IMG/VR virus record: IMGVR_UViG_2545824644_000012
Span: 1-15,261 of that record
Direction: 5' to 3' (one strand)
DNA length: 15,261 bases
Source of the DNA: a virus
Taxonomy: Duplodnaviria > Heunggongvirae > Uroviricota > Caudoviricetes
The notes under the pieces are model-generated. The model did no database searches, was not told the origin of the DNA, and saw only the letters and a list, made by a program, of their open reading frames with translations. The position numbers were made by a program, and so were the translations under genes. Below, piece by piece: positions 1,358-15,261 of this stretch; the first letter of the stretch is position 1, and each line of letters opens with the position of its first letter.

Positions 1358-1421
1358 GAGAGTTGTTCGCTAATCATGGTCGCCGCCACTATAGCTTGCG
1401 GGCGACGACCGGGGTTGAACA

Positions 1422-3893: not shown

Positions 3894-3988
3894 TGTGTTT
3901 TAACCTCATTACAGATTTCAGGGTGAACGAATCCCTGCCATTGCTGGCATTTTTAATCCGTTGGTATGGCGTTAATATGGCTGGCGGG

Positions 3989-4177
3989 TTATCCAGCCGG
4001 TGTTTCGTTATTCAGGTACAGCGATACTTTTTTTACCGGGAGGCATTCACCGGGGATTTTTTGTTCGTCCCTTACCTGAATGCAGGATGACTTACTGTCA
4101 TAAATTCCGGTAATCACATTCTGCGGCTCACCCGTTATAAGAAAAACGGTCATCACCAGTGCAAATGCTGAAGTCAT
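3989..4177 (-). CDS. ydfD: YdfD-like small lysis protein (Qin ydfD homologue)
   Basis: 62-aa ORF with hydrophobic N-terminus (MTSAFALVMTVFLITGEP) and EQKIPG.C.PV.KV pattern recalled from Qin YdfD; GGAG 7 nt upstream; ATG overlaps the dicB stop (ATGA). Confidence 0.6.
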   Translation of the reverse strand: MTSAFALVMTVFLITGEPQNVITGIYDSKSSCIQVRDEQKIPGECLPVKKVSLYLNNETPAG

Positions 4178-4362
4178 TGACGTTCTCCGAAAATACCAAG
4201 TTTAATAAGGGCAATTCGGGAAAGAATGGAATTATCATTGAGCAGATAAGGCTCATATTTCCGCATATTAATGGCATCCTCAGTAAACGCTTTATTACTG
4301 AGCAGAACACCAATATCAAAACAACCTTCAGACGTATTAACGTTTGGTAATAACGTTTCCAT
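4174..4362 (-). CDS. dicB: Cell-division inhibitor DicB homologue
   Basis: 62-aa ORF; N-terminus METLLPNVNTSEGCFDIGV..FTEDAIN.RK matches recalled K-12 DicB (MKTLLPNVNTSEGCFEIGV...FTEDAINKRK); GAGGA 7 nt upstream of the ATG; same length as DicB. Confidence 0.75.
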   Translation of the reverse strand: METLLPNVNTSEGCFDIGVLLSNKAFTEDAINMRKYEPYLLNDNSILSRIALIKLGIFGERQ

Positions 4363-4379
4363 TATCGCGTCCTCAACAA

Positions 4380-4535
4380 TGAATTTTGTGATGCAGTGCC
4401 TGGTGCCTCCAGGTGACGTTAACCAGTTAACAATTAACGCCGGATTGTTAGTTGATGTCTGTTACGCAAGTAAAAGACCGCTTGTTTTAACTGTTCCGCG
4501 TGCGCATAGCCGCATTCACCGCATCACAAAATTCA
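4380..4535. repeat. Near-perfect 19-bp inverted repeat pair (tGAATTTTGTGATGC(a/g)GTG) separated by about 118 bp
   Basis: Plus strand 4380-4398 tgaattttgtgatgcagtg; reverse complement of 4517-4535 is tgaattttgtgatgcggtg (18/19 identical). Lies between the DicF-like element and the dicB ribosome-binding site. Confidence 0.8.
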
Positions 4536-4539
4536 CTTT

Positions 4540-4579
4540 AAAAAGGGCGGATATCCATTTCCGCCGAATCACCAGAAAA
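4540..4579 (-). ncRNA. dicF: DicF-like small RNA (shortened variant) with intrinsic-terminator 3' end
   Basis: Minus strand reads UUUCUGGUGAUUCGGCGGAAAUGGAUAUCCGCCCUUUUU. The 5' UUUCUGGUGA and the GGCGG...CCGCCC stem plus U-run resemble recalled DicF (UUUCUGGUGACGUUUGGCGG...GCCGCCC). Position immediately upstream of dicB matches Qin gene order. Boundaries approximate. Confidence 0.45.
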
Positions 4580-4941
4580 GTGATAACAGAGGTTGTTGTG
4601 GCTGGGGTGTCACTTAAGCGTATGGTCAACCTGACAACCCGGTGTCCTCAACGGGGGAAGGAATAACCCCGCCATACTTACCGCCGCGCCATTTCGCGGA
4701 TTACCACAACCGGAAGCGCACGATCGAATTAAATTTAACGACGACCTATACAGAGAGACGAACTTCGCCGTGCGCTTTCGTGTTGTGTGCCTGCTTTAAC
4801 CACGTCAGGCGAGGTGGACTCGTTATTCCCCAACAACAAGGATCTTGTTAATCTGGATATCCACAACAAGAATAAGAGTATTCAGAGTGATCGCTGAATT
4901 AACGGCAGCAATGGCGGCTATTCCTTAATTACCAGGCATCA

Positions 4942-5094
4942 TTAGTCAGAGTTTCTTGCTAACCAGCGATGCGCGCCAGCTTCGGTTTTAAACGTTTTAC
5001 TTTTGGTATACGTCATCGCGGTAAACGTGCCGTCCTGGTTGGGGAAGACGCCGCACACCAGAGATTCATTGTTGCCAAGATTGAGCATATCCAT
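4942..5094 (-). CDS. DUF1391-like small protein (YdfA/YdaF family)
   Basis: 50-aa ORF below the track length cutoff: MDMLNLGNNESLVCGVFPNQDGTFTAMTYTKSKTFKTEAGAHRWLARNSD; GAGG 4 nt before the ATG; first gene downstream of the leftward promoter, as ydfA is in the Qin dicB operon. Family assignment from memory. Confidence 0.55.
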   Translation of the reverse strand: MDMLNLGNNESLVCGVFPNQDGTFTAMTYTKSKTFKTEAGAHRWLARNSD

Positions 5095-5272
5095 GTTGAC
5101 CTCATTTACCCTTAACGCCGGGTCGCGGAACTAAAAACCTGCTGCGCTGTTATACAAAGTGTTCCCGCCGTCATGTTCATACGCCTCGGGCTGGCTACTT
5201 AACCCCTGACCACTGCCTGGTAACTCGAAGTATTGCCCTGCGTTCTGTGGGGCGGGGTGGGTTGATGAATAT

Positions 5273-5310
5273 AATCTACAAGTAAAAACTGTTTGATGTC
5301 AACAATAAAT
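5273..5310 (-). promoter_or_regulatory. Leftward sigma70-type promoter (-35 TTGACA, 18-bp spacer, -10 TAGATT) overlapped by a repressor operator
   Basis: Minus strand: TTGACA is the reverse complement of 5297-5302 and TAGATT of 5273-5278. Plus strand 5283-5310 contains aaaaaCTGTT-N7-AACAAtaaat, the same half-site pattern as the palindrome in the repressor/cro intergenic region. Confidence 0.5.
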
Positions 5311-5366
5311 AACTGTCATTTTGGACGAAGAAAACTCCCTCATCAGTGGGAGCAAAAGCGGTGGGC

Positions 5367-5654
5367 TTAAAGATTAGCGGGGAATTGTCGACGGGCGTGA
5401 ACCACGTTTACAATTTCAATACCTGAAGTTGTCACCCGGTACAAAATTATGTAATTGGGGTGAGCCACAATCTCGCGCAAACCTGGCACTCTGTCGCTTG
5501 GCGGATATAAATACGGATGTTCGGATAACGGCAGGACGCAAGCTCTTAAGCGTTGCCATAAGCGTTCTGCCGCATCTATGTCGAAACGGGCAATATAACT
5601 AGTTATATCATCCAGATCGGTATCTGCGCTTTCAAGCCATAACACGGGTAACAT
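5367..5654 (-). CDS. parE2: ParE/RelE-family type II toxin (ParE2-like)
   Basis: 95-aa ORF starting directly after the antitoxin stop (TAA-ATG); RelE/ParE-like size and sequence; partner of a PaaA2-like antitoxin. Confidence 0.8.
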   Translation of the reverse strand: MLPVLWLESADTDLDDITSYIARFDIDAAERLWQRLRACVLPLSEHPYLYPPSDRVPGLREIVAHPNYIILYRVTTSGIEIVNVVHARRQFPANL

Positions 5655-5846
5655 TTACTGCTCTCTCCGTTCCTTGCGAATTTTGGCAAAGCGTTCTGCC
5701 ATTCTGCGCTCAACTTCATCATGTGGAATAGCAGGACGTGGATCAGCAAGGCTTGCGGCTACTTTTGCGCGTAACCATTCGTTATAACTGTTTTCTTGCT
5801 CAACGGTTTCAAATTCAGAAACCATTGGTGAAAGGGCTGTATTCAT
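5655..5846 (-). CDS. paaA2: PaaA2-like antitoxin (63 aa)
   Basis: Using the internal Met gives MNTALSPMVSEFETVEQENSYNEWLRAKVAASLADPRPAIPHDEVERRMAERFAKIRKERREQ, near-identical to the recalled E. coli O157 PaaA2. AGGAGG 6 nt upstream of this ATG; the longer track ORF (to 5909) would overlap the repressor gene. Confidence 0.85.
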   Translation of the reverse strand: MNTALSPMVSEFETVEQENSYNEWLRAKVAASLADPRPAIPHDEVERRMAERFAKIRKERREQ

Positions 5847-5875
5847 GACATACCTCCTCTTACAGGTGGTAGAGA

Positions 5876-6277
5876 TTACGCTCGGTGCCCCTTTTGGGCT
5901 GCGATCCACCGAGCAACAGTTTCTTCCATTGACTTTTTCTTATTTTTTATTTCCTGAAGCATTTTTTCTTGGTCTTCATCGGGAAATGCACTAAAAGCTT
6001 GGAGCAATTCACGTTGGCGAGGGCCAATTTTCATCGTGTCAGGAGTAAAAATTTGCTCTCCCTCTTCTGGAGGTAATAAAAACCAATGTAGTGGATGCCC
6101 TGTAACCTCGACCAACTTATCTAAGCTGGAGGCTTTAGGTGTGGCTTTTCCACTGACCCATTGCTGAACAGTTTGCTGTGTCACACCGACTCTACGAGCA
6201 AGTTCAGCTTGGCTCCATCCTGTTTCTTTGAGGAGCCTGCTAATTCTGTACATAGATACTTCTAGGGCCTTCATCAT
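5876..6277 (-). CDS. paaR2: HTH (XRE-family) repressor, DicA/PaaR2-like; probable prophage repressor
   Basis: 133-aa ORF with helix-turn-helix (SQAELARRVGVTQQTVQQW); divergent from a Cro-like gene across an operator-containing intergenic region; immediately upstream of the PaaA2/ParE2 pair on the same strand. No Shine-Dalgarno upstream, so possibly leaderless like lambda cI. Confidence 0.7.
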   Translation of the reverse strand: MMKALEVSMYRISRLLKETGWSQAELARRVGVTQQTVQQWVSGKATPKASSLDKLVEVTGHPLHWFLLPPEEGEQIFTPDTMKIGPRQRELLQAFSAFPDEDQEKMLQEIKNKKKSMEETVARWIAAQKGHRA

Positions 6278-6288
6278 TATTCGATTTT

Positions 6289-6347
6289 ACAGGTAAATAC
6301 TGTTAAAAGCACCACAATAAAAAACTGTTGATCATGAACAGTTTTTT
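6289..6347. promoter_or_regulatory. Operator region between divergent repressor and cro-like genes
   Basis: 6319-6347 aaaaaaCTGTTgatcatgAACAGtttttt has perfect 11-bp inverted arms around a 7-bp spacer; a second ACAG-N7-CTGT element lies at 6289-6303. Divergent promoters were not resolved confidently. Confidence 0.5.
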
Positions 6348-6385
6348 ATTGTAGCCTTTATCTATGAACTTCAGAGGAGGGCAAC

Positions 6386-6646
6386 ATGCTCAATAGCACC
6401 CGTGAAAAAATTAAGCAGAAATACACACAGGCTGAAATAGGACGCTATATGGGAGTAACCCAACAAACTGTTTGGCAATGGTTTAGCTTGGGTATTCCTC
6501 CCAAACAGGTAATCCCTTTATGCCAACTAATGCAGTGGGGGGTTACTCCTCACGAACTCCGACCTGATATTTATCCTAACCCAACAGACGGCTTGCCTGC
6601 TGAGTTTCAGACTAGCACACAGCCAGCGACGGGAGTTGATTCATGA
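6386..6646 (+). CDS. Cro-like HTH regulator (YdaS family)
   Basis: 86-aa ORF; GAGGAGGG Shine-Dalgarno; motif GVTQQTVWQW..GIPP...ELRPD typical of YdaS/Cro-like proteins; divergent from the repressor. Confidence 0.7.
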   Translation: MLNSTREKIKQKYTQAEIGRYMGVTQQTVWQWFSLGIPPKQVIPLCQLMQWGVTPHELRPDIYPNPTDGLPAEFQTSTQPATGVDS

Positions 6647-7068
6647 AAATCAAGCATGAGCACATCCGCATGGCGATGAATGCCTGGGCATATCCTGACG
6701 GTGAGAAAGTTCCCGCAGCTGAAATAGCCCGGACTTATTTCGAACTGGGGATGACGTTCCCGGAACTGTACGACGACACTCATCCTGAGGCCCTGGCTCG
6801 TAATACCCAGAAAATTTTCCGTTGGCTGGATAAAGACACCCATGATGCTGTTGAAAAAATTCAGGCTCTGTTACCGGCGATCGAAAAGGCGATGCCGCCT
6901 TTGCTGGTGGCCCGTATGCGCAGTCACAGTTCTGAGTACTACCGGGAGATTGTCGAACGGCGGGATCGGCTGGTGAAGGATGTCGACGATTTTGTTGCGT
7001 CAGCGGTCGTTTTGTATGACCAGATAAATCGCGGCGGCCCGGCAGGGAATGCTGTGGTGATGCACTAA
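6643..7068 (+). CDS. YdaT-family protein (CII-like regulator / putative toxin)
   Basis: 141-aa ORF beginning MKIKHEHI, as recalled for Rac YdaT; ATG overlaps the cro-like stop (ATGA), matching the ydaS-ydaT arrangement. Confidence 0.6.
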   Translation: MKIKHEHIRMAMNAWAYPDGEKVPAAEIARTYFELGMTFPELYDDTHPEALARNTQKIFRWLDKDTHDAVEKIQALLPAIEKAMPPLLVARMRSHSSEYYREIVERRDRLVKDVDDFVASAVVLYDQINRGGPAGNAVVMH

Positions 7069-7090
7069 AAGCACGGTGTTCGGGGGTTTT

Positions 7091-8059
7091 ATGAGCAGCA
7101 AGCTTCATGGTCTTGTCTGGGAAGGATGCGCCTTCACTGGCATGATCTTATCAAGGGTGGCAGTAATGGCCCGTCTTGCAGATTACAGCAATGACGAGGG
7201 GGTGTCATGGCCTGCTATGGAAACGATCCGGCGTCAGATCGGTGCCAGAAGTGAATCCACCGTGAAATCTGCGATTGCAGAACTGGCGAAAGAGGGCTGG
7301 CTGACGAAGGAAGAGCGTAAGATCGGTGGGCGTAACGTAAGCAATATCTATCGGCTTAATGTGGAAAAACTCGAAGCAGCGGCAGCGGCGGCGCGTGAGG
7401 CATATAAACCGAAAAGAAAAATTAGCCCGGCAAAAAATGACCCGTTAACAGTTGACCCGTCAAATATTGACCCCTCAACGGTTGACCCGTCAAATTCTGA
7501 GGGGTCAACCATTGATAAAAAACAGCCGATTAGGGGGGCGATGATTGACCCCGATCCGTCAGTATTAAAACCTGATCCGTCAGATAAAAGATCTTCTTGT
7601 CCGGACGTTTCACTTCCGGACGAAAAAAAATCATCTCCGGTTGAACGCTTTCTGGATAAACACCCTGATGCGCATACGTGGAATGTGCCGAAGCGACAGT
7701 GGGGAACCCGTGATGATATTACCTGTGCGCAGTGGATCTGGGGGCGTGTTGTTGCGCTGTATGAACACGCAGCCAGTGATGATGGTGAGGTTTCTCGCCC
7801 CAGAGAGCCAAACTGGACGACATGGGCTAACGATGTCCGGATGATGCGCATGCTGGATGGCCGCAGTCACCGGCAGATTTGTGAAATGTTCAGTCGGGTG
7901 CAGCGGGATCCGTTCTGGGTAAAAAATATCATGAGTCCGGCAAAACTGCGCGAAAAATGGGATGAACTGGTCATTCGTCTTGGGCGTGGGCCTGCGCAGA
8001 GTTGCGTGAATCATATTTCTGAACCGGACACTGAAATTCCACCGGGTTTCAGGGGGTAA
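7091..8059 (+). CDS. Replication initiator (lambda O-like / YdaU-like, N-terminal winged-helix)
   Basis: ORF upstream of the DnaC-like gene; N-terminal winged-helix region (VSWPAMETIRRQIGARSESTVKSAIAELAKEGWLT); iteron repeats lie inside the gene. Start placed at ATG 7091 (GGGGG 4 nt upstream); the track's GTG 7076 has no ribosome-binding site. Confidence 0.7.
   Translation: MSSKLHGLVWEGCAFTGMILSRVAVMARLADYSNDEGVSWPAMETIRRQIGARSESTVKSAIAELAKEGWLTKEERKIGGRNVSNIYRLNVEKLEAAAAAAREAYKPKRKISPAKNDPLTVDPSNIDPSTVDPSNSEGSTIDKKQPIRGAMIDPDPSVLKPDPSDKRSSCPDVSLPDEKKSSPVERFLDKHPDAHTWNVPKRQWGTRDDITCAQWIWGRVVALYEHAASDDGEVSRPREPNWTTWANDVRMMRMLDGRSHRQICEMFSRVQRDPFWVKNIMSPAKLREKWDELVIRLGRGPAQSCVNHISEPDTEIPPGFRG
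7438..7585. repeat. Iteron-like repeats inside the initiator gene; candidate origin of replication
   Basis: TTGACCC direct repeats at 7452, 7467 and 7482 (15-bp period), an inverted copy GGGTCAA at 7502-7508, another TTGACCC at 7545, an A-rich segment at 7511-7525, and two GATCCGTCAG repeats at 7553 and 7574. Analogous to ori-lambda inside gene O. Confidence 0.45.
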
Positions 8060-8065
8060 CTGACC

Positions 8066-8818
8066 ATGAAAGATATCGCGACAGTTGCAGTTGGTGTTCT
8101 GGAACGCATCCGCAGACTGGCTCCTGAGCACGTTCCCGTGCCGTACAGTACGACGGAGGAGTGGCGCGAGTGGCAACTTGCCGAAGGCCGGAAATACTGC
8201 GAGGAGATTAACCGCCGGAATCGTCAGTTGCGGGTGGAAAAAATCCTGAACCGTTCGGGCATCCAGCCGCTGCACCGCAAATGTTCGTTCGCGAATTACC
8301 AGGTGCGGAACGACGGGCAGAAACATGCGCTGAGCCAGGCTAAATCCATCGCTGAGGAAATGATGACCGGTTATACAAACTTCGTGTTCAGCGGGAATCC
8401 GGGAACCGGAAAAAATCATCTGGCGGCGGCTGTGGGTAATCGTCTGCTGAAGGCTGGTAAATCCGTGATAGTGGTCACCGTGGCGGATGTGATGAGCGCG
8501 TTACATGCCAGCTATGACGACGGGCTGTCAGGGGAAAAATTTTTGCGTGAACTGTGCGAAGTGGACCTCCTGGTTCTTGACGAAATTGGCATCCAGCGTG
8601 AGACGAAAAACGAGCAGGTGGTACTGCACCAGATTGTTGACCGCCGGACGGCATCACTGTGCAGTGTCGGGATGCTGACAAACCTGAATCATGCCGCAAT
8701 GAGCACGCTTCTTGGTGAGAGGATTATGGACAGGATGACCATGAACGGTGGTCGCTGGGTGAGTTTTAACTGGGAAAGCTGGCGTCCCAATGTCAGCCAT
8801 CTGAGAGTATTGAAGTAA
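8066..8818 (+). CDS. DnaC-like helicase loader (IstB-like AAA+ ATPase)
   Basis: 250-aa ORF; Walker [16 protein letters not shown] and Walker [10 protein letters not shown]; overall very similar to recalled E. coli DnaC ([13 protein letters not shown]..., MLTN..., LGERVMDRM). Confidence 0.9.
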
Positions 8819-8840
8819 TTTTTATCCGGAGGAAATTTTA

Positions 8841-9557
8841 ATGGAAACCGTTTTTGACGCACTGAAAGCACTGAAAAGAGCCTCTTCACAGGTAGTGGCG
8901 GCCCGCCTTGGAATCAGCCGTGAAGATGCGGTCAACGAACTGTGGAAACTGAAGCGCCGTGGTGAAGCGGATAACAAGGGGTCGATGTGGTGGCTGATTC
9001 AGGCTGGTGAAAGTGAACCTGTGTCACAGGTACCGAAAGTGACAGCGCAAATGCTGACTGAGGCGATTGAACAACATGGCCCACAAACGGCGGATGAACT
9101 GGCACTGATGTTCGGAATTACCTCCCGCCGGGCGAATTCATCGCTGGCGATGGCAATCAGCAAAGGGCGTCTGATTCGCGTGAATCAGGGCGGTAAATTT
9201 CGTTACTGCATACCGGGCGCTGATTTACCGGCAGAGCCGGAAGCTGCATCCGTAGCGGAAACGGATGGTAAAGCCTTTCCTCAGCCAGCAGGAGTTGCGT
9301 TACCGGTACAGGAAGCGGCGACACAGGAAGAAATTAAAACAGATACTGTGGCGGACATTGTGCAGTCGCTGCCATCGTTTACCGAAACGAAAGCAGATGA
9401 CCTGATTCTACCATCGCTGAATGTGGCTAACCGCGAGCTGCGCCGGGCGAAAAGTCATGTCCAGAAGTGGGAGCGTGTCTGTGCCGCGCTGCGGGAACTG
9501 AACAAACACAGGGATATTCTCCGGGATATTACCACCACCAGAGAGCAGCAACAGTGA
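8841..9557 (+). CDS. Hypothetical protein with two winged-helix-like segments and a C-terminal coiled-coil (possibly DUF1627-like)
   Basis: 238-aa ORF with GGAGG Shine-Dalgarno; two HTH-like segments ([17 protein letters not shown] and [26 protein letters not shown]); function unknown. Confidence 0.6.
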
Positions 9558-9871
9558 GTGGCTGGAAGACGTGGTGCCGGGCGGAAATCCTGATACTCCG
9601 GCAGTGTGCGGGAACAATGACGGTGGAATGCATCGGGATGCTTATTGGTCGTAGTGAGGCTGCGGTCAGAACGAAAGCGCGGGAACTGGGTATTAGTATG
9701 ATGTTACGGGGTGATTATCACCAGTCAGCAAAATATCCGCAGAGTGATATTGAGCTGGCGCGACAGCAGCATCAGCGTGGCGTGTCGAGGAGAGAAATCG
9801 CCAGAAAATTCGGAATGCCGTTGCGCACAGTGAATAACTACGTTTATTTCGACAGGAGGGTGTCTGCGTGA
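9554..9871 (+). CDS. Small HTH protein, NinH-like C-terminus
   Basis: GTG start overlapping the upstream stop (GTGA); alternative ATG at 9617. C-terminal [21 protein letters not shown] resembles lambda NinH (EVARRLKCSRGTVRKYV). Confidence 0.5.
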
Positions 9872-10095
9872 AAATCCTGTATCAGGATTACGGCCCGGTG
9901 GGGCAGGTGCTTATCAGCAGTACTGTAATGGAGTTCCGGAAGCATAACCGTGTGGTGGATTCTGTGCTGTTAACCTGTCCGGGGATATCGGCGAGTCGTG
10001 CAGGTGTGTTTATTATGAAGACGAAATTATATGGCAGTAAGGCGTGGATAAAGAAGGCGTATCGTGTAGCGTTGCAGGAGGTTAACAGTGAGTGA
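9868..10095 (+). CDS. Hypothetical 75-aa protein
   Basis: GTG start overlapping the upstream stop; AGGAGGG 7 nt upstream; no recognisable domain. Confidence 0.45.
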   Translation: MKILYQDYGPVGQVLISSTVMEFRKHNRVVDSVLLTCPGISASRAGVFIMKTKLYGSKAWIKKAYRVALQEVNSE

Positions 10096-10399
10096 AATTA
10101 AAGAAATGCCGGTAGTTCGTGACGAATATGGCTACTGGACACATCCTGAATATGAAAAATTCTGTGATGGTCGGGAGAATATTTCAACGGAAGAATTTAA
10201 CGCGTGGATGGAGGCAAATAATCTTCAGTGGACTATCTGCACTATGGATGAAGATGATTTTAACCTGGACGCAGATGGCCCTGATATTTCAGCATGGGAA
10301 CCGGAACGACCAGAGGGCGATGGCTGGTTTATTGGTTCCATTCATGATACGGAAGATGGCCCGGTTTGTGTCTGGTTGCGAAATAAGGCTGAAGCATAA
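10088..10399 (+). CDS. Hypothetical strongly acidic 103-aa protein
   Basis: GTG start with AGGAGG 6 nt upstream, overlapping the upstream stop. Roughly 29 Asp/Glu against about 7 Lys/Arg; several conserved-looking Trp residues. Confidence 0.55.
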   Translation: MSEIKEMPVVRDEYGYWTHPEYEKFCDGRENISTEEFNAWMEANNLQWTICTMDEDDFNLDADGPDISAWEPERPEGDGWFIGSIHDTEDGPVCVWLRNKAEA

Positions 10400-10745
10400 A
10401 GGAGATAAACCAACTAACAACTAAATACTGAAGATTTAAATCAGAAACGATTTTTATTAAATCCTTAACCGGAGGGATTCCTGCACCCTCAGAATATCAG
10501 GAGGCCGCCCGAAAGGGCGGTAAGAAATGAAACATTATTTAGAAAAAATTACCCACGAAAGAGCAGAACAACAGAGTTTCTGTTTTTCATTCTGTTTATA
10601 GTGTTGATGATACCGATATCCCCGCTATTACTGGTCTGGATAATTGGAAGGACATTTGAACCAGTTATTGAGCTATATACCGATGTGACATGGGAATCAT
10701 TCAGCGCACTGCACAATAAAATTAATCCGTATAAGGAAAACTGAT

Positions 10746-11303
10746 ATGAGCACTATTACCAGAGAACGCGCGGAGATTAAATCATACATCACAGGCTTCC
10801 TGAGCGACTCGGCGCACGATAACAAGTCTTCAGACAGCCTGCTGGCTAATGTGTTTCGTATCGCGCTGGCATCACTGGAAGCAGAGCCGATAGCAATGGT
10901 AGTGCCTGATGAAATGGATTTGCTTACCTGCCATCTCGACGGTGTAACTAAAACATATGCTGATGGCTGGAACGTCTGCCGCGTCGCCATGCTTCAGGCC
11001 GGAAACTTTCGGGAAAATAAGAATTCGTCAACCAACAATTTTCGGGAAATCTCGGAAACGTCAACCAGATCTCCGATAACTCCGGATGGCTGGATAAGCT
11101 GTACTGAGCGAATGCCTGAAAAGAGCCAGAACGTGCTTATTTCGATGAATATCGATAGCGAGGCAGGGCCATTAATATATTCCGCACGCTATCTCGGAGG
11201 CACGTTCCGGCGCGGAGGTATAGCAGTTAGTCCGGGTAATGATCTTAGGCAAGCAACCCACTGGATGCCGCTACCAGAACCGCCGCAGGAGGTGAATCAA
11301 TGA
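10746..11303 (+). CDS. DUF551-like phage protein
   Basis: 185-aa ORF with AAGGA Shine-Dalgarno; C-terminal pattern W.S..ERMPE...HWMPLPEPP recalled as typical of DUF551 proteins. Confidence 0.6.
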   Translation: MSTITRERAEIKSYITGFLSDSAHDNKSSDSLLANVFRIALASLEAEPIAMVVPDEMDLLTCHLDGVTKTYADGWNVCRVAMLQAGNFRENKNSSTNNFREISETSTRSPITPDGWISCTERMPEKSQNVLISMNIDSEAGPLIYSARYLGGTFRRGGIAVSPGNDLRQATHWMPLPEPPQEVNQ

Positions 11304-11383
11304 CCTGGCCTGAAGCATTCACAACGGTAGGAATTGCGATGGCGGTGGCGCTGGTGGTGTATTCGATTTGCCGCTGGGGATAA
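11300..11383 (+). CDS. Small hydrophobic peptide (27 aa), putative membrane protein
   Basis: MTWPEAFTTVGIAMAVALVVYSICRWG; ATG overlaps the DUF551 stop (ATGA) with GGAGGTG 7 nt upstream; below the track length cutoff. Confidence 0.35.
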   Translation: MTWPEAFTTVGIAMAVALVVYSICRWG

Positions 11384-11390
11384 AAACGGT

Positions 11391-11418
11391 TTGCGGGAAA
11401 AGGATAGTTAAGTAGAAT
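11391..11418 (+). promoter_or_regulatory. Candidate hok mRNA promoter (-35 TTGCGG, 16-bp spacer, -10 TAGAAT)
   Basis: Hexamers at 11391-11396 and 11413-11418; the predicted transcript 5' end (about 11420) coincides with a sequence complementary to the region downstream of hok. Confidence 0.4.
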
Positions 11419-11593
11419 TGCAGCGGGTGCTTGAGGCTATCTGCCTCGGGCATGAACACCAACGGCAGATAGAGAAAAGCCCCAGTTAACATTACGCGTC
11501 CTGCAAGACGCTTAACATTAATCTGAGGCTCAATCCATGCTGAACACATGTAGGTTAGCCTCTTACGTGCCGAAAGGCAAGGAGAAGCAGGCT

Positions 11594-11749
11594 ATGAAGC
11601 AGCAAAAGGCGATGTTAATCGCCCTGATCGTCATCTGTTTAACCGTCATAGTGACGGCACTGGTAACGAGGAAAGACCTCTGCGAGGTGCGAATCCGAAC
11701 CGGTCAGACGGAGGTCGCTGTCTTCGTAGACTACGAATCTGAGAAGTAA
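11594..11749 (+). CDS. hok: Hok/Gef-family type I toxin (HokD/RelF-like)
   Basis: 51-aa ORF MKQQKAMLIALIVICLTVIVTALVTRKDLCEVRIRTGQTEVAVFVDYESEK with the Hok signature; AAGGAG upstream. The in-frame upstream ATG at 11537 (track ORF) would add a 19-aa extension. Confidence 0.85.
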   Translation: MKQQKAMLIALIVICLTVIVTALVTRKDLCEVRIRTGQTEVAVFVDYESEK

Positions 11750-11756
11750 GAGACCT

Positions 11757-11816
11757 GGCGGGGGAGTAATCTCCCGCCACCTCTGATGTGTCAGGCATCC
11801 TCAACGCACCCGCGCT
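11757..11816 (+). other. hok mRNA 3' element: hairpin plus fold-back sequence complementary to the mRNA 5' end
   Basis: Hairpin GGCGGGGGAG-taat-CTCCCGCC at 11757-11778; 11799-11816 CCTCAACGCACCCGCGCT is complementary (one bulge) to 11420-11436 GCAGCGGGTGCTTGAGG, about 380 nt upstream. Confidence 0.5.
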
Positions 11817-11868
11817 TTACCATACTGAAAATGCTGTTTGAATGTTCATCTCTGAAAGAGGACTATGA

Positions 11869-12213
11869 ATGAAAAAGGTATTGATTGCAGCACTTATTTC
11901 CGGTGTGTCTTTTGGCGCTTTTGCACAGCAGGGTGGTTTCCAGGGGCCAGAAGCAGAGCGTTCAACAGTAGCGCAGGCAAAAGAACTGAAGGATGATGCA
12001 TGGGTTATCCTTGAAGGGAGCATCGTTAAAAAAGTGGGTGATGAACGTTATGAGTTTCGTGACAATAGCGGGACAATTGTCACGGATATTGATGACAGCG
12101 TATGGGCCGGGCAGAATGTTTCTCCTAAAGACAAAGTAAGAATTGAGGGTGAAATTGATAAAGACCTGAGCAGTGTTGAAGTTGATGTAAAGGCACTGAA
12201 ATTATTAAAGTAA
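11869..12213 (+). CDS. YgiW/YdeI (BOF) family periplasmic OB-fold stress protein, with signal peptide
   Basis: 114-aa ORF; signal peptide MKKVLIAALISGVSFGAFA; AGAGGA Shine-Dalgarno; recognisable BOF-family sequence; followed by an intrinsic terminator, i.e. moron-like. Confidence 0.8.
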   Translation: MKKVLIAALISGVSFGAFAQQGGFQGPEAERSTVAQAKELKDDAWVILEGSIVKKVGDERYEFRDNSGTIVTDIDDSVWAGQNVSPKDKVRIEGEIDKDLSSVEVDVKALKLLK

Positions 12214-12231
12214 CCGCCCCTGCTTGTTAAG

Positions 12232-12258
12232 CCCGTCTTACTGACGGGTTTTCTGTTT
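12232..12258 (+). terminator. Rho-independent terminator
   Basis: CCCGTC-ttact-GACGGG stem-loop followed by TTTTCTGTTT, directly after the YgiW-like gene stop. Confidence 0.55.
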
Positions 12259-12285
12259 GTACATTCCGGCGTATTGCCTTACAAT
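12257..12285 (+). promoter_or_regulatory. Candidate sigma70 promoter (-35 TTGTAC, 17-bp spacer, -10 TACAAT)
   Basis: Hexamers at 12257-12262 and 12280-12285, upstream of the 12335 gene and the DUF968-rusA-Q operon; a TGACA-N5-TGTCA palindrome follows at about 12308-12322. Confidence 0.4.
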
Positions 12286-12334
12286 TCGCGCAGTCAGCCT
12301 GAACAACTGACACCTGCTGTCACCGGAGAATCCG

Positions 12335-12607
12335 ATGACACAACACATAAAATCCCACAATTCTGAAGCCGACCCGGAAATTAAGCAGGGGAGGCGTTTT
12401 CGTGCGCCTCAGTATGGCTGGTTTCACTATCTGTTCTGTACGATCGATGAGGCAGATATGCTTCAAGAGGCGTATCTGCGTCGCGGTGTCCGTGTGGAGC
12501 GGAGTCTGAACGCTGATCGTCTGACCTGGACCGTTTCTGTATATCTTCCTGTTCGTGCACATCTGCCACGGACACATGCCTGCTACCGTCAGCGCGTCTG
12601 GAGGTAA
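12335..12607 (+). CDS. Hypothetical 90-aa protein (occupies the position of rem in Qin)
   Basis: ORF with GGAG 7 nt upstream; its stop TAA lies inside the ribosome-binding site of the next gene (GGAGGTAATGTG), indicating translational coupling; no recognisable domain. Confidence 0.5.
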   Translation: MTQHIKSHNSEADPEIKQGRRFRAPQYGWFHYLFCTIDEADMLQEAYLRRGVRVERSLNADRLTWTVSVYLPVRAHLPRTHACYRQRVWR

Positions 12608-12608
12608 T

Positions 12609-13658
12609 GTGCGGGTATTACTTCGACCTGTTCTGGTTCCGGAACTCGGGCTGGTGGTCCTTAAGCCCGGTCGTGAATCATTGCCAGTTTTTCATCGCGG
12701 CAGGGTGCTGGTGGAGCCGGAACCGAAAAACATGCGCGGTCTGCCGTCCGGAGTCGTTCCTGCCGTTCGCCAGCCGCTGGCAGAGGATAAAACATTACTG
12801 CCATTTTTCAGCGATGAGCGGGTTATTCGTGCAGCAGGTGGTGCAGGTGCACTGTCTGACTGGTTATTACGTCACGTGAAATCCTGCCAGTGGCCACACG
12901 GCGATTATCATCACAGCGAAACCGTCATTCACCGTTACGGTACCGGCGCGATGGTGTTGTGCTGGCACTGTGACAACCAGCTGCGCGACCAGACATCAGA
13001 ATCACTCGATCAACTTGCTCAGCAGAATCTGGTTGCCTGGATGATTGACGTCATCCGTCACGCAATAAGCGGTACGCAGGAGAGGGAGTTATCGCTGGCC
13101 GAATTATCCTGGTGGGCGGCCTGCAGTCAGGTGGTGGATGCACTACCTGAGGCAGTAGCGCGTCGTTCGCTGGGATTACCAGCGGAAAAAATCCGCTCCG
13201 TATACCGTGAGAGTGACATCGTACCGGGAGAACAGACAGCCATCAGCATACTGAAGCAGCGCACAAAAAATATTGCGCTGCCACTTCACGTCCACCAGCA
13301 ACAAAATCCACCACAGAAAAAAACGGTTGTCAGTATCGCCGTTGATCCGGAGTCTCCTGAATCGTTCATGAGGCGGCCTAAACGTCGCCGTTGGGTTAAT
13401 GAGAAATACACGCGCTGGGTAAAGACACAGCCGTGTGCGTGTTGTGGTAAGCCTGCTGACGATCCGCATCACCTGATTGGTCATGGTCAGGGGGGAATGG
13501 GGACAAAGGCCCACGATATTTTCACGCTACCGTTGTGCCGGGAGCACCACAACGAACTTCATGCAGACCCGCTGGAGTTTGAGAAAAAGTACGGCTCTCA
13601 GATTGAGTTAATTTTTCGTTTTCTTGATCACGCCTTTGCGACTGGCGTGCTCGGGTAA
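12609..13658 (+). CDS. DUF968-like protein (YdfU family) with C-terminal HNH-like Cys/His motif
   Basis: GTG start at 12609 (GGAGG 4 nt upstream) gives 349 aa; C-terminal CACCGKPADDPHHLIGHG...CREHHNELH resembles an HNH/zinc-binding nuclease motif. The track start at 12555 lacks a ribosome-binding site and overlaps the upstream gene. Confidence 0.65.
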   Translation: MRVLLRPVLVPELGLVVLKPGRESLPVFHRGRVLVEPEPKNMRGLPSGVVPAVRQPLAEDKTLLPFFSDERVIRAAGGAGALSDWLLRHVKSCQWPHGDYHHSETVIHRYGTGAMVLCWHCDNQLRDQTSESLDQLAQQNLVAWMIDVIRHAISGTQERELSLAELSWWAACSQVVDALPEAVARRSLGLPAEKIRSVYRESDIVPGEQTAISILKQRTKNIALPLHVHQQQNPPQKKTVVSIAVDPESPESFMRRPKRRRWVNEKYTRWVKTQPCACCGKPADDPHHLIGHGQGGMGTKAHDIFTLPLCREHHNELHADPLEFEKKYGSQIELIFRFLDHAFATGVLG

Positions 13659-13670
13659 AAGAGGTGACTG

Positions 13671-14044
13671 ATGCTCATAGATTTGGTTTTACCTTACCCG
13701 CCGACGGTGAACACTTACTGGAGACGCCGTGGCAGCACATATTTTGTATCAAAAGCAGGGGAGCGTTATCGCCGGCAGTGGCGCTTATTGTTCGCCAGCA
13801 GCGACTGAAATTAAGCCTGTCCGGACGGCTGGCAATAAAAATTATTGCAGAGCCACCGGATAAGCGTCGTCGCGACCTGGACAATATTCTGAAAGCACCG
13901 CTGGATGCGCTGACGCATGCGGGAGTGCTTATTGATGACGAGCAGTTTGATGAAATCAATATTGTACGTGGTCAGCCAGTATCTGGTGGACGTCTGGGGG
14001 TGAAGATTTACCCCATAATGCTTGAAGGGCAGGTCAAAAAATGA
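13671..14044 (+). pseudogene. rusA: rusA Holliday-junction resolvase, apparently disrupted by a -1 frameshift
   Basis: From ATG 13671 (AAGAGG 6 nt upstream) the frame reads MLIDLVLPYPPTVNTYWRRRGSTYFVSKAGERYRR, matching the RusA N-terminus, then stops at 13806-13808. The RusA C-terminus (AVALIV...PDKRRRDLDN...) continues in the -1 frame to 14044. The shift maps to the G-run near 13774-13776. Confidence 0.65.
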
Positions 14045-14862
14045 AACTGGAAGATTTACCGAAATACTACTCCCCAAAATCCCCCGGCCTGACTGATGCA
14101 TCGGCCTCAACGTCAAAAGATGCGCTGAGTATCACTGATGTGATGGCCGCGCAGGGCATGACACAGAATCGGGCTGAGATGGGGTTTTCTGCGTTCCTTG
14201 GGAAAATGGGCATTAGTATGAATGACAGAGAGCGGGCAACAGAATTGCTGACAGAATATGCACTCAGTCGGTGTGATCGCGTGGCGGCGTTAAGAAAACT
14301 CCCGGCAGAAATAAAACCGGCAGTGATGCGAATTATGGCTTCGTATGCGTTTGAAGATTATGCCCGTAGCGCGGCGAGCAAAAAACAGTGCCCCTGCTGT
14401 CACGGAAAAAAATTTATTGAAAGCGAGGTTTTTACAAACAAGATCCAGTATCCGGATGGTAAGCCGCCAGTGTGGGCAAAGTGCACAAAAGGCGTGTATC
14501 CGTCTTACTGGGAGGAATGGAAAAAAGTCAGGGAGGTGGTAAAAGTTGCCTGTCCGGAGTGTGGCGGAAAGGGGGAGGTTTCCACCGCCTGTAAAGATTG
14601 TCGTGGGCGCGGTGTTGCCATTCATCGTGAAGAGTCGGAAAAACAGGGTGTGCCGGTTTTCAGAAACTGCCAGCGTTGTGGTGGGCGTGGCTATGAAAGA
14701 TTACCTTCAACGGAGGCATTTAATGCCATATGTAATGTAACCGATGCCATATCTCTTGATACATGGAAAAAAACAGTTAAACGTTTTTACGATACGCTGG
14801 TGGTGCAGTTTGATATTGAAGAAGCATGGGCAGAACAACAACTGAAAAAGGTGACCAGATAG
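14041..14862 (+). CDS. Putative Q-type late antiterminator (QuuQ-like) with DnaJ-type CxxCxGxG zinc-finger repeats
   Basis: 273-aa ORF; ATG overlaps the rusA stop (ATGA). Cys motifs CPCCHGKK, CPECGGKG, CKDCRGRG, CQRCGGRG. Position between rusA and a downstream promoter-like region matches lambdoid Q. Confidence 0.55.
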   Translation: MKLEDLPKYYSPKSPGLTDASASTSKDALSITDVMAAQGMTQNRAEMGFSAFLGKMGISMNDRERATELLTEYALSRCDRVAALRKLPAEIKPAVMRIMASYAFEDYARSAASKKQCPCCHGKKFIESEVFTNKIQYPDGKPPVWAKCTKGVYPSYWEEWKKVREVVKVACPECGGKGEVSTACKDCRGRGVAIHREESEKQGVPVFRNCQRCGGRGYERLPSTEAFNAICNVTDAISLDTWKKTVKRFYDTLVVQFDIEEAWAEQQLKKVTR

Positions 14863-14867
14863 CTTTG

Positions 14868-14895
14868 TTGATTTTTCCCGAATCTGTGGTAAATT
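14868..14895 (+). promoter_or_regulatory. Candidate late (pR'-like) promoter downstream of the Q-like gene
   Basis: -35 TTGATT (14868-14873), 16-bp spacer, -10 TAAATT (14890-14895), immediately after the Q-like stop. Confidence 0.35.
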
Positions 14896-15087
14896 TGCCC
14901 TAACGATGGGCGTTTTATGCCTGACGTTAGAAGATTTTTACACCCGTCGCCAGGCGGTTTTTTTTATGACTGAAATCACGCCAGTACAGTAAACGCGCTG
15001 GTGGCGGTGAATACCGGTCTTTCAGCTTGCTGGCTTTTTTGACAAGAGTTATTGGTGTGTCACGTTAACCGGAAAAGGGAAAAAGAC

Positions 15088-15261
15088 ATGCTGAAACAGC
15101 AGGATATGACCGAAACTGCCAGAGTGGTGTTTAATGAATTAAGCGTCACCGAACCGGCGACAGTCGGGGAGATTGCGCAGAATACTTACCTTTCACGCGA
15201 ACGCTGCCAGTTAATACTGACCCAGCTTGTTATGGCGGGTCTGGCAGACTATCAGTGCGGT
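15088..15261 (+). CDS. Partial ORF (N-terminal 58 aa), continues beyond the window
   Basis: ATG at 15088 with a weak ribosome-binding site; open to the window end (MLKQQDMTETARVVFNELSVTEPATVGEIAQNTYLSRERCQLILTQLVMAGLADYQCG); possible winged-helix. Confidence 0.35.
   Translation, partial: MLKQQDMTETARVVFNELSVTEPATVGEIAQNTYLSRERCQLILTQLVMAGLADYQCG

What the first reader, a model, noticed from the sequence alone, without database searches (positions are those of the whole stretch)
14041..15087. Q-like protein with DnaJ-type zinc-finger repeats and an unusual downstream late region
Three canonical CxxCxGxG repeats and one variant sit in a protein at the Q position. A promoter-like element (TTGATT-16-TAAATT) follows within 10 bp of its stop. 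The next 190 bp contain T8 and T6 runs without convincing upstream stems, so the Q-utilisation site and terminator could not be defined. The first late-region ORF (15088) looks like a winged-helix protein, not a lysis gene.
Basis: partly seen in the sequence, partly recalled or inferred. Interest (0 to 1): 0.4.

Follow-up and report, generated by a model that had tools for sequence, protein, structure and literature searches.

The report
Ordinary lambda-type Q antiterminator cassette
This is a standard late-gene switch of a lambda-like E. coli prophage: a lambda-family Q antiterminator with an extra zinc-binding insert, followed by its own promoter, pause signal and a slightly damaged terminator. 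It is already annotated in thousands of genomes.

Summary
ORF 14041-14862 (273 aa) is a full-length lambda-Q-family antiterminator (Pfam PF03589, E 5e-52; colinear with PDB 7UBM lambda Q). A 68-aa insertion at the body/arm junction adds a second Cys4 zinc ribbon, giving four CxxC motifs. This long form is common across Enterobacterales.

From the -10 hexamer through +9 it matches lambda pR' at 18 of 21 bases, including the pause element AACGATGGG at the same 6-nt distance. The same layout recurs downstream of most related Q genes.

The terminator is the hairpin 14944-14957 plus T8 (14958-14965), at the family's usual position. It looks weak because T14958 replaces a G present in every relative compared. 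This drops hairpin stability from -12.0 to -7.4 kcal/mol. The T6 run is not conserved.

The layout that follows is the usual Stx-phage-like late region: small ORF, regulator, tRNAs, nanS, then holin and lysozyme. The window is 99.96% identical to an annotated E. coli prophage at ompW.

Already known; low interest.

The parts
13664..14044 (+). rusA pseudogene (frameshifted). Its stop overlaps the Q start codon (ATGA at 14041-14044).
   Evidence: Pfam RusA hit. The N-terminal 45 aa read from ATG 13671 are in a different frame from the C-terminal part. The 99.96%-identical record annotates the gene as frameshifted.
14041..14862 (+). Q gene: a lambda-family late-gene antiterminator, long form, 273 aa.
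   Evidence: PF03589 E 5.3e-52, 174 bits against a cut-off of 26.7. phmmer to lambda Q (7UBM) E 1.1e-41: residues 1-113 align to lambda Q 1-113 and residues 182-273 to 116-207. Among solved structures at E<=0.001 (8 hits), the predicted fold matches only lambda Q chains. RefSeq calls it 'antitermination protein' WP_000762902.1; a Stx2a phage record calls it quuQ.
14041..14220 (+). Codons 1-60: the N-terminal segment that in lambda Q is disordered and refolds with NusA into the torus/nozzle at the RNA-exit channel.
   Evidence: Conserved with lambda Q, e.g. SPKSP, TDVMAA.GM and G39. Low pLDDT for residues 1-29. The role is taken from PMC9388147.
14380..14583 (+). Codons 114-181: a 68-aa insertion relative to lambda Q at the body/arm junction. 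It carries an extra Cys4 zinc ribbon (C117, C120, C171, C174) with a beta-hairpin of variable length.
   Evidence: It appears as a gap in lambda Q in the alignments. The cysteines are invariant in the 29 long forms. The model shows strands 125-136 and 159-170 flanked by the two CxxC knuckles. The centre of the insert varies in length and sequence.
14584..14694 (+). Codons 182-218: the lambda-type zinc-ribbon arm (C184, C187, C210, C213). Its tip, S199-E200-K201-Q202-G203, corresponds to lambda Q T133-G137, which contacts sigma region 4.
   Evidence: Alignment to lambda Q 116-152. The cysteines and G203 are invariant. The role of the arm tip is taken from PMC9388147.
14868..14873 (+). pR' -35 hexamer, TTGATT.
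   Evidence: It occupies the same position as TTGACT in lambda and TTTACT in 30+ related loci.
14874..14889 (+). Promoter spacer TTTCCCGAATCTGTGG: the candidate Q-binding element. It includes the TGn extended -10 at 14887-14889.
   Evidence: This is the most conserved block in 38 distinct class-A loci from many genera, while the flanks diverge. The spacer class changes with the Q body sequence, giving class A, SfV-type and lambda-type spacers. Lambda Q's binding element lies in the late promoter (PMC9388147). Binding has not been shown here.
14890..14895 (+). pR' -10 hexamer, TAAATT (identical to lambda pR').
14895..14900 (+). TTGCCC: a -35-like element 1 bp upstream of the pause element. It is the counterpart of lambda's TTGACT, where repositioned sigma region 4 binds.
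   Evidence: Read directly from the sequences: 4 of 6 positions match lambda. The role is taken from PMC9388147. This is an inference.
14902..14910 (+). Sigma-dependent pause element AACGAT plus GGG. The inferred transcription start (+1) is A14902, with the pause expected near +16/+17 (14917-14918).
   Evidence: The 9-mer is identical to lambda pR' at the same 6-nt distance from the -10 hexamer. It occurs once in the window against 0.04 expected. It is present downstream of most related Q genes. The start and pause positions are carried over from lambda on my own knowledge and were not measured.
14902..14928 (+). Predicted 5'-terminal stem-loop of the leader RNA. The AACG of the pause element pairs with CGUU at +24..+27, around an inner GGGCGU/AUGCCU helix.
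   Evidence: -9.3 kcal/mol. The outer helix covaries across the family. Its function is unknown.
14944..14965 (+). tR' intrinsic terminator: the CCGUC-GCCA-GGCGG hairpin (14944-14957) plus U8 (14958-14965). It is weakened by the private substitution T14958.
   Evidence: The scan finds it. The stem ends at +56, against a family median of +60 in 53 loci. The homologous hairpin in SfV is annotated as a terminator. Relatives have G at 14958. Stability is -7.4 kcal/mol here against -12.0 for the G allele. Mosaic breakpoints flank it. A phage with an unrelated short Q shares the hairpin and the DNA downstream of it.
15035..15040 (+). T6 run: probably not a terminator.
   Evidence: The stem has only 4 bp. 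The run reads TTTTTC in Stx2_EH1910 and E. albertii and TTTTTA in SfV.
15088..15261 (+). First gene after tR': a 65-aa protein cut off by the window end, with AAGGG 8 nt upstream. It is possibly a small winged-helix protein.
   Evidence: phrog_331, function unknown, E 2e-37. Only sub-threshold wHTH Pfam hits. It is SfV orf47, and some RefSeq records annotate it as a 'TrmB family transcriptional regulator'. It has no similarity to lambda orf-64.

Best explanation
The region is the late-gene switch of a lambdoid E. coli prophage integrated next to ompW. It follows the lambda Q design.

- The 273-aa protein is a lambda-family Q.
- RNA polymerase starts at pR' (TTGATT-16-TAAATT, +1 about 14902).
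- Sigma-70 re-binds the -10-like AACGAT(GGG) at +1 to +9 and pauses the complex at about +16/+17.
- Without Q, transcription ends at the hairpin and U8 at 14944-14965, giving a leader RNA of about 62-64 nt.
- When Q is made from the early-right operon (its start overlaps the rusA stop), it binds the promoter spacer (candidate site TTTCCCGAATCTGTGG). It contacts the paused polymerase and repositioned sigma region 4 through its zinc-ribbon arm.
- With NusA, its N-terminus forms a nozzle on the RNA-exit channel. Polymerase then reads through tR' into the 65-aa ORF, an AraC-type regulator, three tRNAs, nanS, and the lysis and morphogenesis genes.

Two of the four CxxC motifs are lambda Q's own zinc ribbon. 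The other two belong to a 68-aa modular insertion that forms a second zinc ribbon at the base of the arm. This insertion is dispensable for the basic mechanism, since lambda Q lacks it, and its role is unknown.

Shown here: family membership, conservation of the promoter, pause element and terminator, and gene order.
Inferred: Q binding to the spacer, the start and pause positions, two bound zinc ions, and activity in this prophage.
For: Protein:
- PF03589, 174 bits.
- Colinear with lambda Q over both halves.
- Among solved structures, only lambda Q chains match the predicted fold at E<=0.001.
- Arm-tip and N-terminal residues are conserved.

Promoter and pause element:
- 18 of 21 positions match lambda pR' from the -10 hexamer to +9.
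- The composite motif is unique in the window, against 0.04 expected.
- The same geometry (-35, 16 nt, -10, 6 nt, AACGATGG) occurs in most of 62 related loci from many genera. The spacer is the best conserved block.
- The spacer class follows the Q body class.

Terminator:
- A hairpin plus T run lies at a median of +60 in 53 loci. The window's hairpin ends at +56.
- Homologous hairpins keep their pairing with different sequences.
- The SfV counterpart is annotated as a terminator.
- Recombination junctions bracket it.

Context:
- 99.96% identity (4 differences in 10,662 bp) to an annotated prophage.

Mechanism:
- Taken from PMC9388147.
- Constitutive pR' with termination at tR' is taken from PMC7547250.
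Against: - No experiment bears on this allele.
- pR' matches the sigma-70 consensus at only 8 of 12 positions and is missed by a generic scan.
- The window's terminator hairpin is the weakest of the 53 compared (-6.7 kcal/mol by that script, median -12.8). Termination may therefore be leaky.
- The prophage shows decay: rusA is frameshifted, and the near-identical relative has another frameshifted late gene. The switch may no longer be used.
- The structure model is of moderate quality (pLDDT 71.7).
- The Q-binding site is inferred from conservation only.
Confidence: 0.9

Rival explanations
1. The cassette is a decaying relic in a cryptic prophage. The Q gene, promoter and terminator are recognisable but no longer work as a switch, and T14958 is one of the accumulating lesions.
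For: - rusA immediately upstream is frameshifted.
- The nearest relative has a further frameshifted late gene.
- The terminator stem carries a substitution not seen in any relative compared. No exact copy of the 61-mer exists in 5,426 complete E. coli genomes.
Against: - The Q ORF is intact, with every family-invariant residue present.
- The -35, spacer, -10 and pause element are identical to those of relatives, including a Stx2a-converting phage record.
- The window differs from its nearest relative by only 4 substitutions in 10.7 kb, so one falling in the terminator needs no special explanation.
- Holin, lysozyme and terminase genes are present downstream in the relative.
Confidence: 0.2
2. 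The working terminator is not the T8 hairpin. It is the T6 site at 15035-15040, or a site beyond the window, and the T8 element is only a pause or a mosaic scar.
For: The T8 hairpin is weak (5 bp, -7.4 kcal/mol). Lambda's tR' lies much further from the start, near +190.
Against: - The T6 run is not conserved (TTTTTC or TTTTTA in relatives) and follows a 4-bp stem.
- The T8 hairpin is at the family's modal position.
- It is strong in all relatives.
- It is retained next to a Q of a different length class.
Confidence: 0.07
3. The extra zinc ribbon changes the mechanism. It adds a third DNA or RNAP contact, so that long-form Q proteins recognise a longer site than lambda Q's 13-bp site.
For: The conserved block upstream of the -10 in class-A loci is long, about 26 bp (CTATTTACTTTTCCCGAA.CTGTG), and runs through the -35. 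The insertion sits at the hinge of the DNA-contacting arm.
Against: - A Pectobacterium Q (L045) has a body close to lambda Q (clearly closer to lambda Q than to the window's protein in the five-sequence alignment) plus the insertion, yet sits upstream of a lambda-type spacer of normal length. Site class therefore follows the body, not the insertion.
- The centre of the insertion is hypervariable in length and sequence, which is unlike a DNA-reading surface.
- Part of the long conserved block is the -35 hexamer itself.
Confidence: 0.12
4. The protein is a DnaJ-like zinc-finger chaperone or redox protein, not an antiterminator.
For: There are four CxxCxGxG-type motifs. PF00684 gives E 7e-7. One homologue is named 'chaperone protein DnaJ' by a source.
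Against: - PF00684 is below its gathering score (29.8 vs 32.7), and the DnaJ equivalog scores 23 bits against a cut-off of 377.
- There is no J domain.
- Homology and fold match to lambda Q run the full length.
- The gene is at the Q position with a lambda-type qut site.
Confidence: 0.01

Closest known systems
Bacteriophage lambda Q with its pR'-qut-tR' cassette (Pfam PF03589; PDB 4MO1, 7UBJ-7UBN)
   Same: - Colinear homologous protein: about 41% identity, with the N-terminal torus segment, the body and the Cys4 zinc-ribbon arm whose tip is conserved.
- The -10 TAAATT, the 6-nt gap, the AACGATGGG pause element and a TTG-containing -35-like element 1 bp upstream of it.
- An intrinsic terminator downstream.
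- Position at the end of the early-right operon.
   Different: - A 68-aa insertion adds a second Cys4 ribbon at the body/arm junction.
- The promoter spacer (putative Q-binding element) is unrelated in sequence and 16 nt rather than 17 nt long.
- The terminator lies at about +56-64 rather than about +190.
- The leader RNA is therefore about 62-64 nt, against 194 nt for lambda 6S RNA (the 194-nt figure is from my own knowledge).
QuuQ/YdfT-type and SfV-type Q proteins of E. coli and Shigella prophages (250-277 aa lambda-family Q; PHROG 127)
   Same: - Same architecture with four CxxC motifs.
- Same gene neighbourhood: DUF968 (YdfU), RusA, Q, then a 64-65-aa ORF.
- Same pause element, with the terminator at about +50-60.
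- The identical protein is annotated in RefSeq, and a 96%-identical locus is annotated quuQ in a Stx2a phage.
   Different: SfV/Qin-type proteins are only about 40-43% identical, have a shorter insertion and use a different spacer (TTTTCAAAAAATATGGA). The window belongs to the 273-aa subgroup with the TTTCCCGAATCTGTGG spacer.
StxS and lambda 6S RNA (short pR'-tR' leader RNAs; PMC7547250)
   Same: The leader is expected to be made constitutively in lysogens as a by-product of control by antitermination.
   Different: - StxS is 258 nt, processed to 74 nt, and lies downstream of the 144-aa Q type.
- There is no sequence relation to it here and no Rfam match.
- No evidence exists for Hfq binding or a trans-acting function of this leader.
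DnaJ cysteine-rich domain (PF00684) and anti-TRAP
   Same: CxxCxGxG zinc-knuckle motifs, four in a row.
   Different: - The hit is below the family threshold and there is no J domain.
- The spacing of the motifs differs from DnaJ.
- The likely pairing is sequential (1+2, 3+4), because lambda Q has only motifs 3 and 4. DnaJ is interleaved (the DnaJ topology is from my own knowledge).

Membership tests
Lambda-Q family antiterminators (PF03589) | Sequence match above the curated family threshold | tested here: met
   174.4 bits against a cut-off of 26.7, E 5.3e-52. PHROG 127 'anti-termination protein Q-like', E 2e-113.
Lambda-Q family antiterminators (PF03589) | Full-length colinearity with lambda Q: N-terminal torus segment, helical body with HTH, Cys4 zinc-ribbon arm | tested here: met
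   phmmer to 7UBM aligns residues 1-113 and 182-273 with lambda Q 1-113 and 116-207. The four arm cysteines and G203 are invariant. Foldseek finds only lambda Q chains at E<=1e-6; the model pLDDT is 71.7.
Lambda-Q family antiterminators (PF03589) | A cognate late promoter immediately downstream, with a sigma-dependent pause element at +1..+6 | tested here: met
   TAAATT-N6-AACGATGGG is identical in element and spacing to lambda pR' and recurs in most of 62 related loci.
Lambda-Q family antiterminators (PF03589) | A Q-binding element within the promoter | tested here: inconclusive
   The spacer is the most conserved block, and its class follows the Q body class. No binding data exist and there is no sequence similarity to the lambda site.
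Lambda-Q family antiterminators (PF03589) | An intrinsic terminator between the promoter and the late genes | tested here: met
   A hairpin plus U8 at +43..+64, at the family's modal position and homologous to stronger hairpins. It is weakened by T14958.
Lambda-Q family antiterminators (PF03589) | Q- and NusA-dependent read-through of terminators | not testable with these tools
   Needs in vitro transcription or reporter assays.
DnaJ cysteine-rich domain (PF00684) | Match above the gathering score, in the context of J and C-terminal domains | tested here: not met
   29.8 bits against a cut-off of 32.7. TIGR02349 DnaJ scores 23 bits against a cut-off of 377. No J domain was found.
Winged-helix regulators (TrmB/MarR) for the ORF at 15088 | Match above the family threshold | tested here: not met
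   TrmB scores 18.3 bits against 25.6, and MarR_2, DprA_WH and HTH_24 are all below their cut-offs. There is no homologue among solved structures. The overlapping weak hits are compatible with a wHTH fold.
StxS / known RNA families for the pR' leader | Covariance-model match | tested here: not met
   The only hit is a chance-level suhB match at E 0.4.

The most novel reading that the evidence does not exclude
The comparison shows two features of lambda-family Q cassettes that I did not find described in the papers I read.

1. A 5'-terminal RNA stem in which the RNA copy of the pause element (+1 AACG) pairs with +19..+27. It covaries across the family and is also present in lambda.
2. A modular, hypervariable second zinc ribbon in most family members.

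The most novel reading not excluded is that the stem-loop has a function. It might stabilise a constitutive leader RNA of about 62 nt that acts as a regulatory RNA like StxS. Alternatively, it might form outside the Q nozzle and help lock Q onto the transcript. The extra ribbon might be a regulatory or host-interaction module.
Probability: 0.12. Interest if true: 0.5.

Novelty: already known. Interest (0 to 1): 0.15.

Why it matters
It matters little as a discovery. The gene is already annotated as an antitermination protein, and the cassette follows the textbook lambda design. The practical value is a precise map of pR', the pause element, the candidate Q-binding spacer and tR' for the 273-aa Q subgroup. 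That subgroup also sits upstream of stx2 in at least one Stx2a phage record, where terminator strength bears on basal toxin transcription. The private G-to-T change in the terminator stem predicts leakier late transcription in this strain. The comparative set also gives natural experiments: the insertion is present or absent on similar Q bodies, and the spacer class covaries with the body class. Anyone studying Q specificity could use these.

Tried and rejected
- The generic promoter scan found nothing at 14868-14895, which matches only 8 of 12 consensus positions. The promoter call therefore rests on homology with lambda and on conservation.
- An Rfam search of 14500-15261 found no family, only a chance-level suhB hit.
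- The ORF at 15088 shows no similarity to lambda orf-64, which occupies the same position.
- I tested whether the insertion is an internal duplication of the arm. BLASTP found only the 8-residue CxxCxGxG motifs, so duplication is not demonstrated.
- RNAalifold on a MAFFT alignment of the initial transcribed regions predicted no structure, because loop lengths differ and the arms fall out of register. I replaced it with an anchored-helix count with shuffles and class cross-pairing.
It was rerun without them.
- The T6 run and the adjacent TTGACA (15039-15044) were considered as a terminator and a promoter. Neither is conserved in close relatives.
- Two literature queries returned nothing useful.
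- PMC4914094 was opened but is not relevant to terminator distance.
Full report
**What is there**

The window is the left and central part of a lambdoid prophage. It is 99.96% identical (4 substitutions in 10,662 aligned bases) to a prophage of E. coli OkiPb01678 integrated next to ompW. It runs in this order:

- integrase (1-1131, minus strand), excisionase, a 3'-5' exonuclease and dicB;
- relBE, the immunity and replication genes, hok and a DUF968 protein;
- a frameshifted rusA, the ORF of the finding, and the start of a 65-aa ORF.

Similar DNA is found in 3,304 of 5,426 complete E. coli genomes.

**The observation**

- The four cysteine motifs are CPCCHGKK (117-124), CPECGGKG (171-178), CKDCRGRG (184-191) and CQRCGGRG (210-217).
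- The stop codon is at 14860-14862.
- TTGATT (14868-14873), 16 nt and TAAATT (14890-14895) follow 5 nt later, preceded by a TGn extended -10.
- T8 is 14958-14965 and T6 is 15035-15040.

The generic promoter scan does not report the promoter, which matches 8 of 12 consensus positions. It does report the hairpin before T8.

**The protein**

It is a member of the lambda Q family, not just Q-like.

- Pfam PF03589 scores 174 bits against a cut-off of 26.7.
- phmmer against solved structures aligns residues 1-113 with lambda Q 1-113 and residues 182-273 with lambda Q 116-207 (7UBM, E 1e-41).
- An AlphaFold model (pLDDT 71.7) matches only lambda Q chains among solved structures at E<=0.001 (8 hits, E 2e-12 to 2e-6).

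PMC9388147 describes the parts of lambda Q:

- a disordered N-terminus (1-60) that refolds with NusA into a torus on the RNA-exit channel;
- a helical body with an HTH motif (61-113 and 153-207);
- a zinc-ribbon arm (114-152) whose tip (133-137) touches repositioned sigma region 4.

All of these are recognisable here. The N-terminus is strongly conserved. C184/C187/C210/C213 are lambda Q's C118/C121/C144/C147. The arm tip SEKQG corresponds to lambda's TELWG, with G203 invariant.

The difference is a 68-residue insertion (114-181) exactly at the body/arm junction.

- It starts and ends with the two extra CxxC motifs.
- It is modelled as a long beta-hairpin between them, that is, a second zinc ribbon.
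- The four extra cysteines are invariant in 29 long-form proteins, but the middle of the insertion varies in sequence and length (260-277 aa forms).

Long forms are the rule rather than the exception. The database search returned hundreds, from Escherichia, Salmonella, Klebsiella, Enterobacter, Citrobacter, Serratia, Pantoea and others. The SfV/Qin-type 250-aa Q proteins also have four CxxC motifs.

The DnaJ likeness is at motif level only. PF00684 is below its threshold and no J domain is present.

A Pectobacterium protein (L045) has a body close to lambda Q (clearly closer to lambda Q than to the window's protein in the alignment) and also carries the insertion. It sits upstream of a lambda-type promoter spacer. 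The insertion therefore behaves as a modular cassette that does not set DNA-site specificity.

**The Q-utilisation site**

The lambda record reads TTGACT-TATTGAATAAAATTGGG-TAAATT-TGACTC-AACGATGGG. The window reads TTGATT-TTTCCCGAATCTGTGG-TAAATT-TGCCCT-AACGATGGG.

- From the -10 hexamer to +9, 18 of 21 positions are identical.
- The shared features are the hexamer, the 6-nt gap, the -10-like pause element AACGAT with its GGG, and a TTG-containing -35-like element 1 bp upstream of it.
- The composite motif occurs once in the window, against 0.04 expected by chance.

I fetched 61 loci from one genome per species that encode relatives of the protein.

- Most show the same geometry directly after the Q stop codon.
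- In 38 distinct class-A sequences, information content peaks over CTATTTAC-TTTTCCCGAA.CTGTG and over TAACGATGGG, while the flanks diverge.
- The spacer class changes with the Q body class: class A, SfV-type TTTTCAAAAAATATGG, and lambda-type.

This is what is expected if the spacer holds the Q-binding element, as in lambda. Binding itself was not shown. By homology, the start is A14902 and the pause is near 14917-14918.

**The terminator**

In 53 loci with a recognisable pause element, a GC-rich hairpin followed by a T run lies at a median of +60, with a median stability of -12.8 kcal/mol. The window's hairpin (14944-14957, then T8) ends at +56 but is the weakest of the set.

The reason is a single base. 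The window has T at 14958, where the nearest relative and the Stx2a phage Stx2_EH1910 have G. E. albertii and a phage with a different Q likewise close the stem with GGG before the T run. No complete E. coli genome has the window's exact 61-mer.

- With G the stem has 7 pairs (-12.0 kcal/mol).
- With T it has 5 pairs, one of them G.U (-7.4 kcal/mol).

Homologous hairpins differ in sequence but keep their pairing:

- CCCGUC/GGCGGG
- CCCGCC/GGCGGG
- CCCGC/GCGGG with varied loops

The SfV counterpart is annotated as a rho-independent terminator.

BLAST breakpoints at about 14938, about 14965 and about 14982 show that the Q-qut module and the terminator-late-gene module recombine around this element. 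A Stx2a phage with a 126-aa Q of another type carries the same hairpin and downstream DNA.

The T6 run is not conserved and has no credible stem. The uninduced product should therefore be a leader RNA of about 62-64 nt, and this allele may terminate less efficiently.

**The late region**

In the near-identical genome, the 65-aa ORF is followed by:

- an AraC/YdeO-like regulator;
- tRNA-Ile, tRNA-Arg and tRNA-Arg;
- a nanS-type esterase, DUF1378 and DUF826;
- holin, lysozyme, Rz and terminase.

The Stx2a phage Stx2_EH1910 has the same Q (96% DNA identity), then the same ORF, a methylase, three tRNAs, stx2AB and nanS. SfV has Q, a terminator, orf47, orf48, a terminator, and then S, R and Rz. A non-lysis gene as the first gene after tR' is thus normal for this group of phages.

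The ORF belongs to phrog_331, of unknown function. It gives only sub-threshold, mutually overlapping hits to winged-helix families. It has no solved relative and no similarity to lambda orf-64.

**Side observation**

Searches compare 48 distinct initial transcribed regions, including lambda. In these, the RNA copy of the pause element (+1 AACG/A) can pair with (U)CGUU at about +19..+27, around a variable inner helix. In the window this is 14902-14928 (-9.3 kcal/mol).

- The AACG class has CGTT in 32 of 35 sequences.
- The AACA class has TGTT in 5 of 5 and CGTT in only 1 of 5.
- AATG keeps CGTT, using a U.G pair.
- The anchored helix averages 4.5 bp, against 3.30 +/- 0.18 in 500 shuffles (maximum 3.94).

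The sequences are related, so this is suggestive rather than proof. I did not find it discussed in the papers I read. PMC7547250 shows that such terminated pR' leaders can be functional small RNAs (StxS), but that RNA is unrelated to this one.

**Verdict**

The finding is a correctly spotted but ordinary lambda-family Q cassette, already annotated in public records.

- the promoter;
- the pause element;
- the candidate Q-binding site;
- the terminator.

The apparent oddities are a private point mutation in the terminator stem and a widespread, uncharacterised second zinc ribbon.

Noticed in passing
window 14958: T here is a private substitution. The nearest relative (4 differences in 10.7 kb) and the Stx2a phage Stx2_EH1910 have G at this position, and E. 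albertii and a phage with a different Q likewise close the terminator stem with GGG before the T run. No complete E. coli genome contains the exact 61-mer. It removes the bottom pairs of the tR' hairpin (-12.0 to -7.4 kcal/mol) and lengthens the U tract from 7 to 8.
   Followed up: yes
window 14902-14928, and the corresponding +1..+27 in L006-L067, lambda (L003 about 786-812) and SfV (L004): A conserved 5'-terminal stem-loop of the pR' leader RNA. The RNA copy of the sigma-dependent pause element pairs with +19..+27, and the pairing covaries (AACG/CGUU, AACA/UGUU, AACAA/UUGUU). Its function is unknown, and I found no description of it in the papers read.
   Followed up: partly
L045:2501-3313 and its downstream 120 nt (Pectobacterium polonicum): A Q protein whose body is close to lambda Q (closer to lambda Q than to the window's protein) but which carries the 66-aa second zinc ribbon. 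It sits upstream of a lambda-type promoter spacer (TTGACA-AGTTGAATAACATTGGG-TAAATT). The insertion is therefore a modular cassette, and lambda Q looks like a form that lacks it.
   Followed up: partly
window about 14938, about 14965 and about 14982: Mosaic junctions. DNA upstream of about 14965 travels with this Q type (mEp460_ev081, Evi, vB_EcoS-640R1). DNA downstream of about 14938 or about 14982 travels with the 65-aa ORF behind other Q types (Stx2a, Stx2c, phiP27, cdtI and mEp460 phages).
   Followed up: partly
window 13664-14044: rusA is a frameshifted pseudogene. The N-terminal 45 codons from ATG 13671 are in a different frame from the C-terminal RusA domain. Its stop overlaps the Q start (ATGA).
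   Followed up: yes
L008-L042, between the Q stop and the -35 hexamer: In genera other than Escherichia, a perfect inverted repeat (for example ATAGCTCAC-N9-GTGAGCTAT) sits just upstream of the -35 of pR'. It could be a terminator for the early operon or an operator. It is absent from the window, where the -35 follows the stop codon by 5 nt.
   Followed up: no
L069-L084 (genome-contig hits): Contigs in assemblies labelled Pseudomonas, Shewanella, Oceanobacillus, Neobacillus, Kitasatospora, Bradyrhizobium, Tardiphaga, Leeuwenhoekiella, Chromatium, Segatella and others are mostly 99.6-100% identical to phage lambda over up to 1.8 kb (two, L078 and L082, about 96% over shorter stretches). This is most likely lambda control or vector DNA contaminating those assemblies.
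   Followed up: partly
window 1-13600: Prophage context. Integrase is at 1-1131 (minus strand), next to ompW in the relative. An 823-aa 3'-5' exonuclease is at 1422-3893 (minus strand). The window also holds dicB, a relBE toxin-antitoxin pair, YdaS/YdaT, a hok/gef gene and a YgiW-like stress protein, which are cargo typical of Rac/Qin-like cryptic prophages.
   Followed up: no
window 15039-15044: A perfect TTGACA overlaps the T6 run upstream of the 65-aa ORF. It reads TCGACA or TAGACA in close relatives and has no good -10 partner, so it is probably fortuitous.
   Followed up: partly
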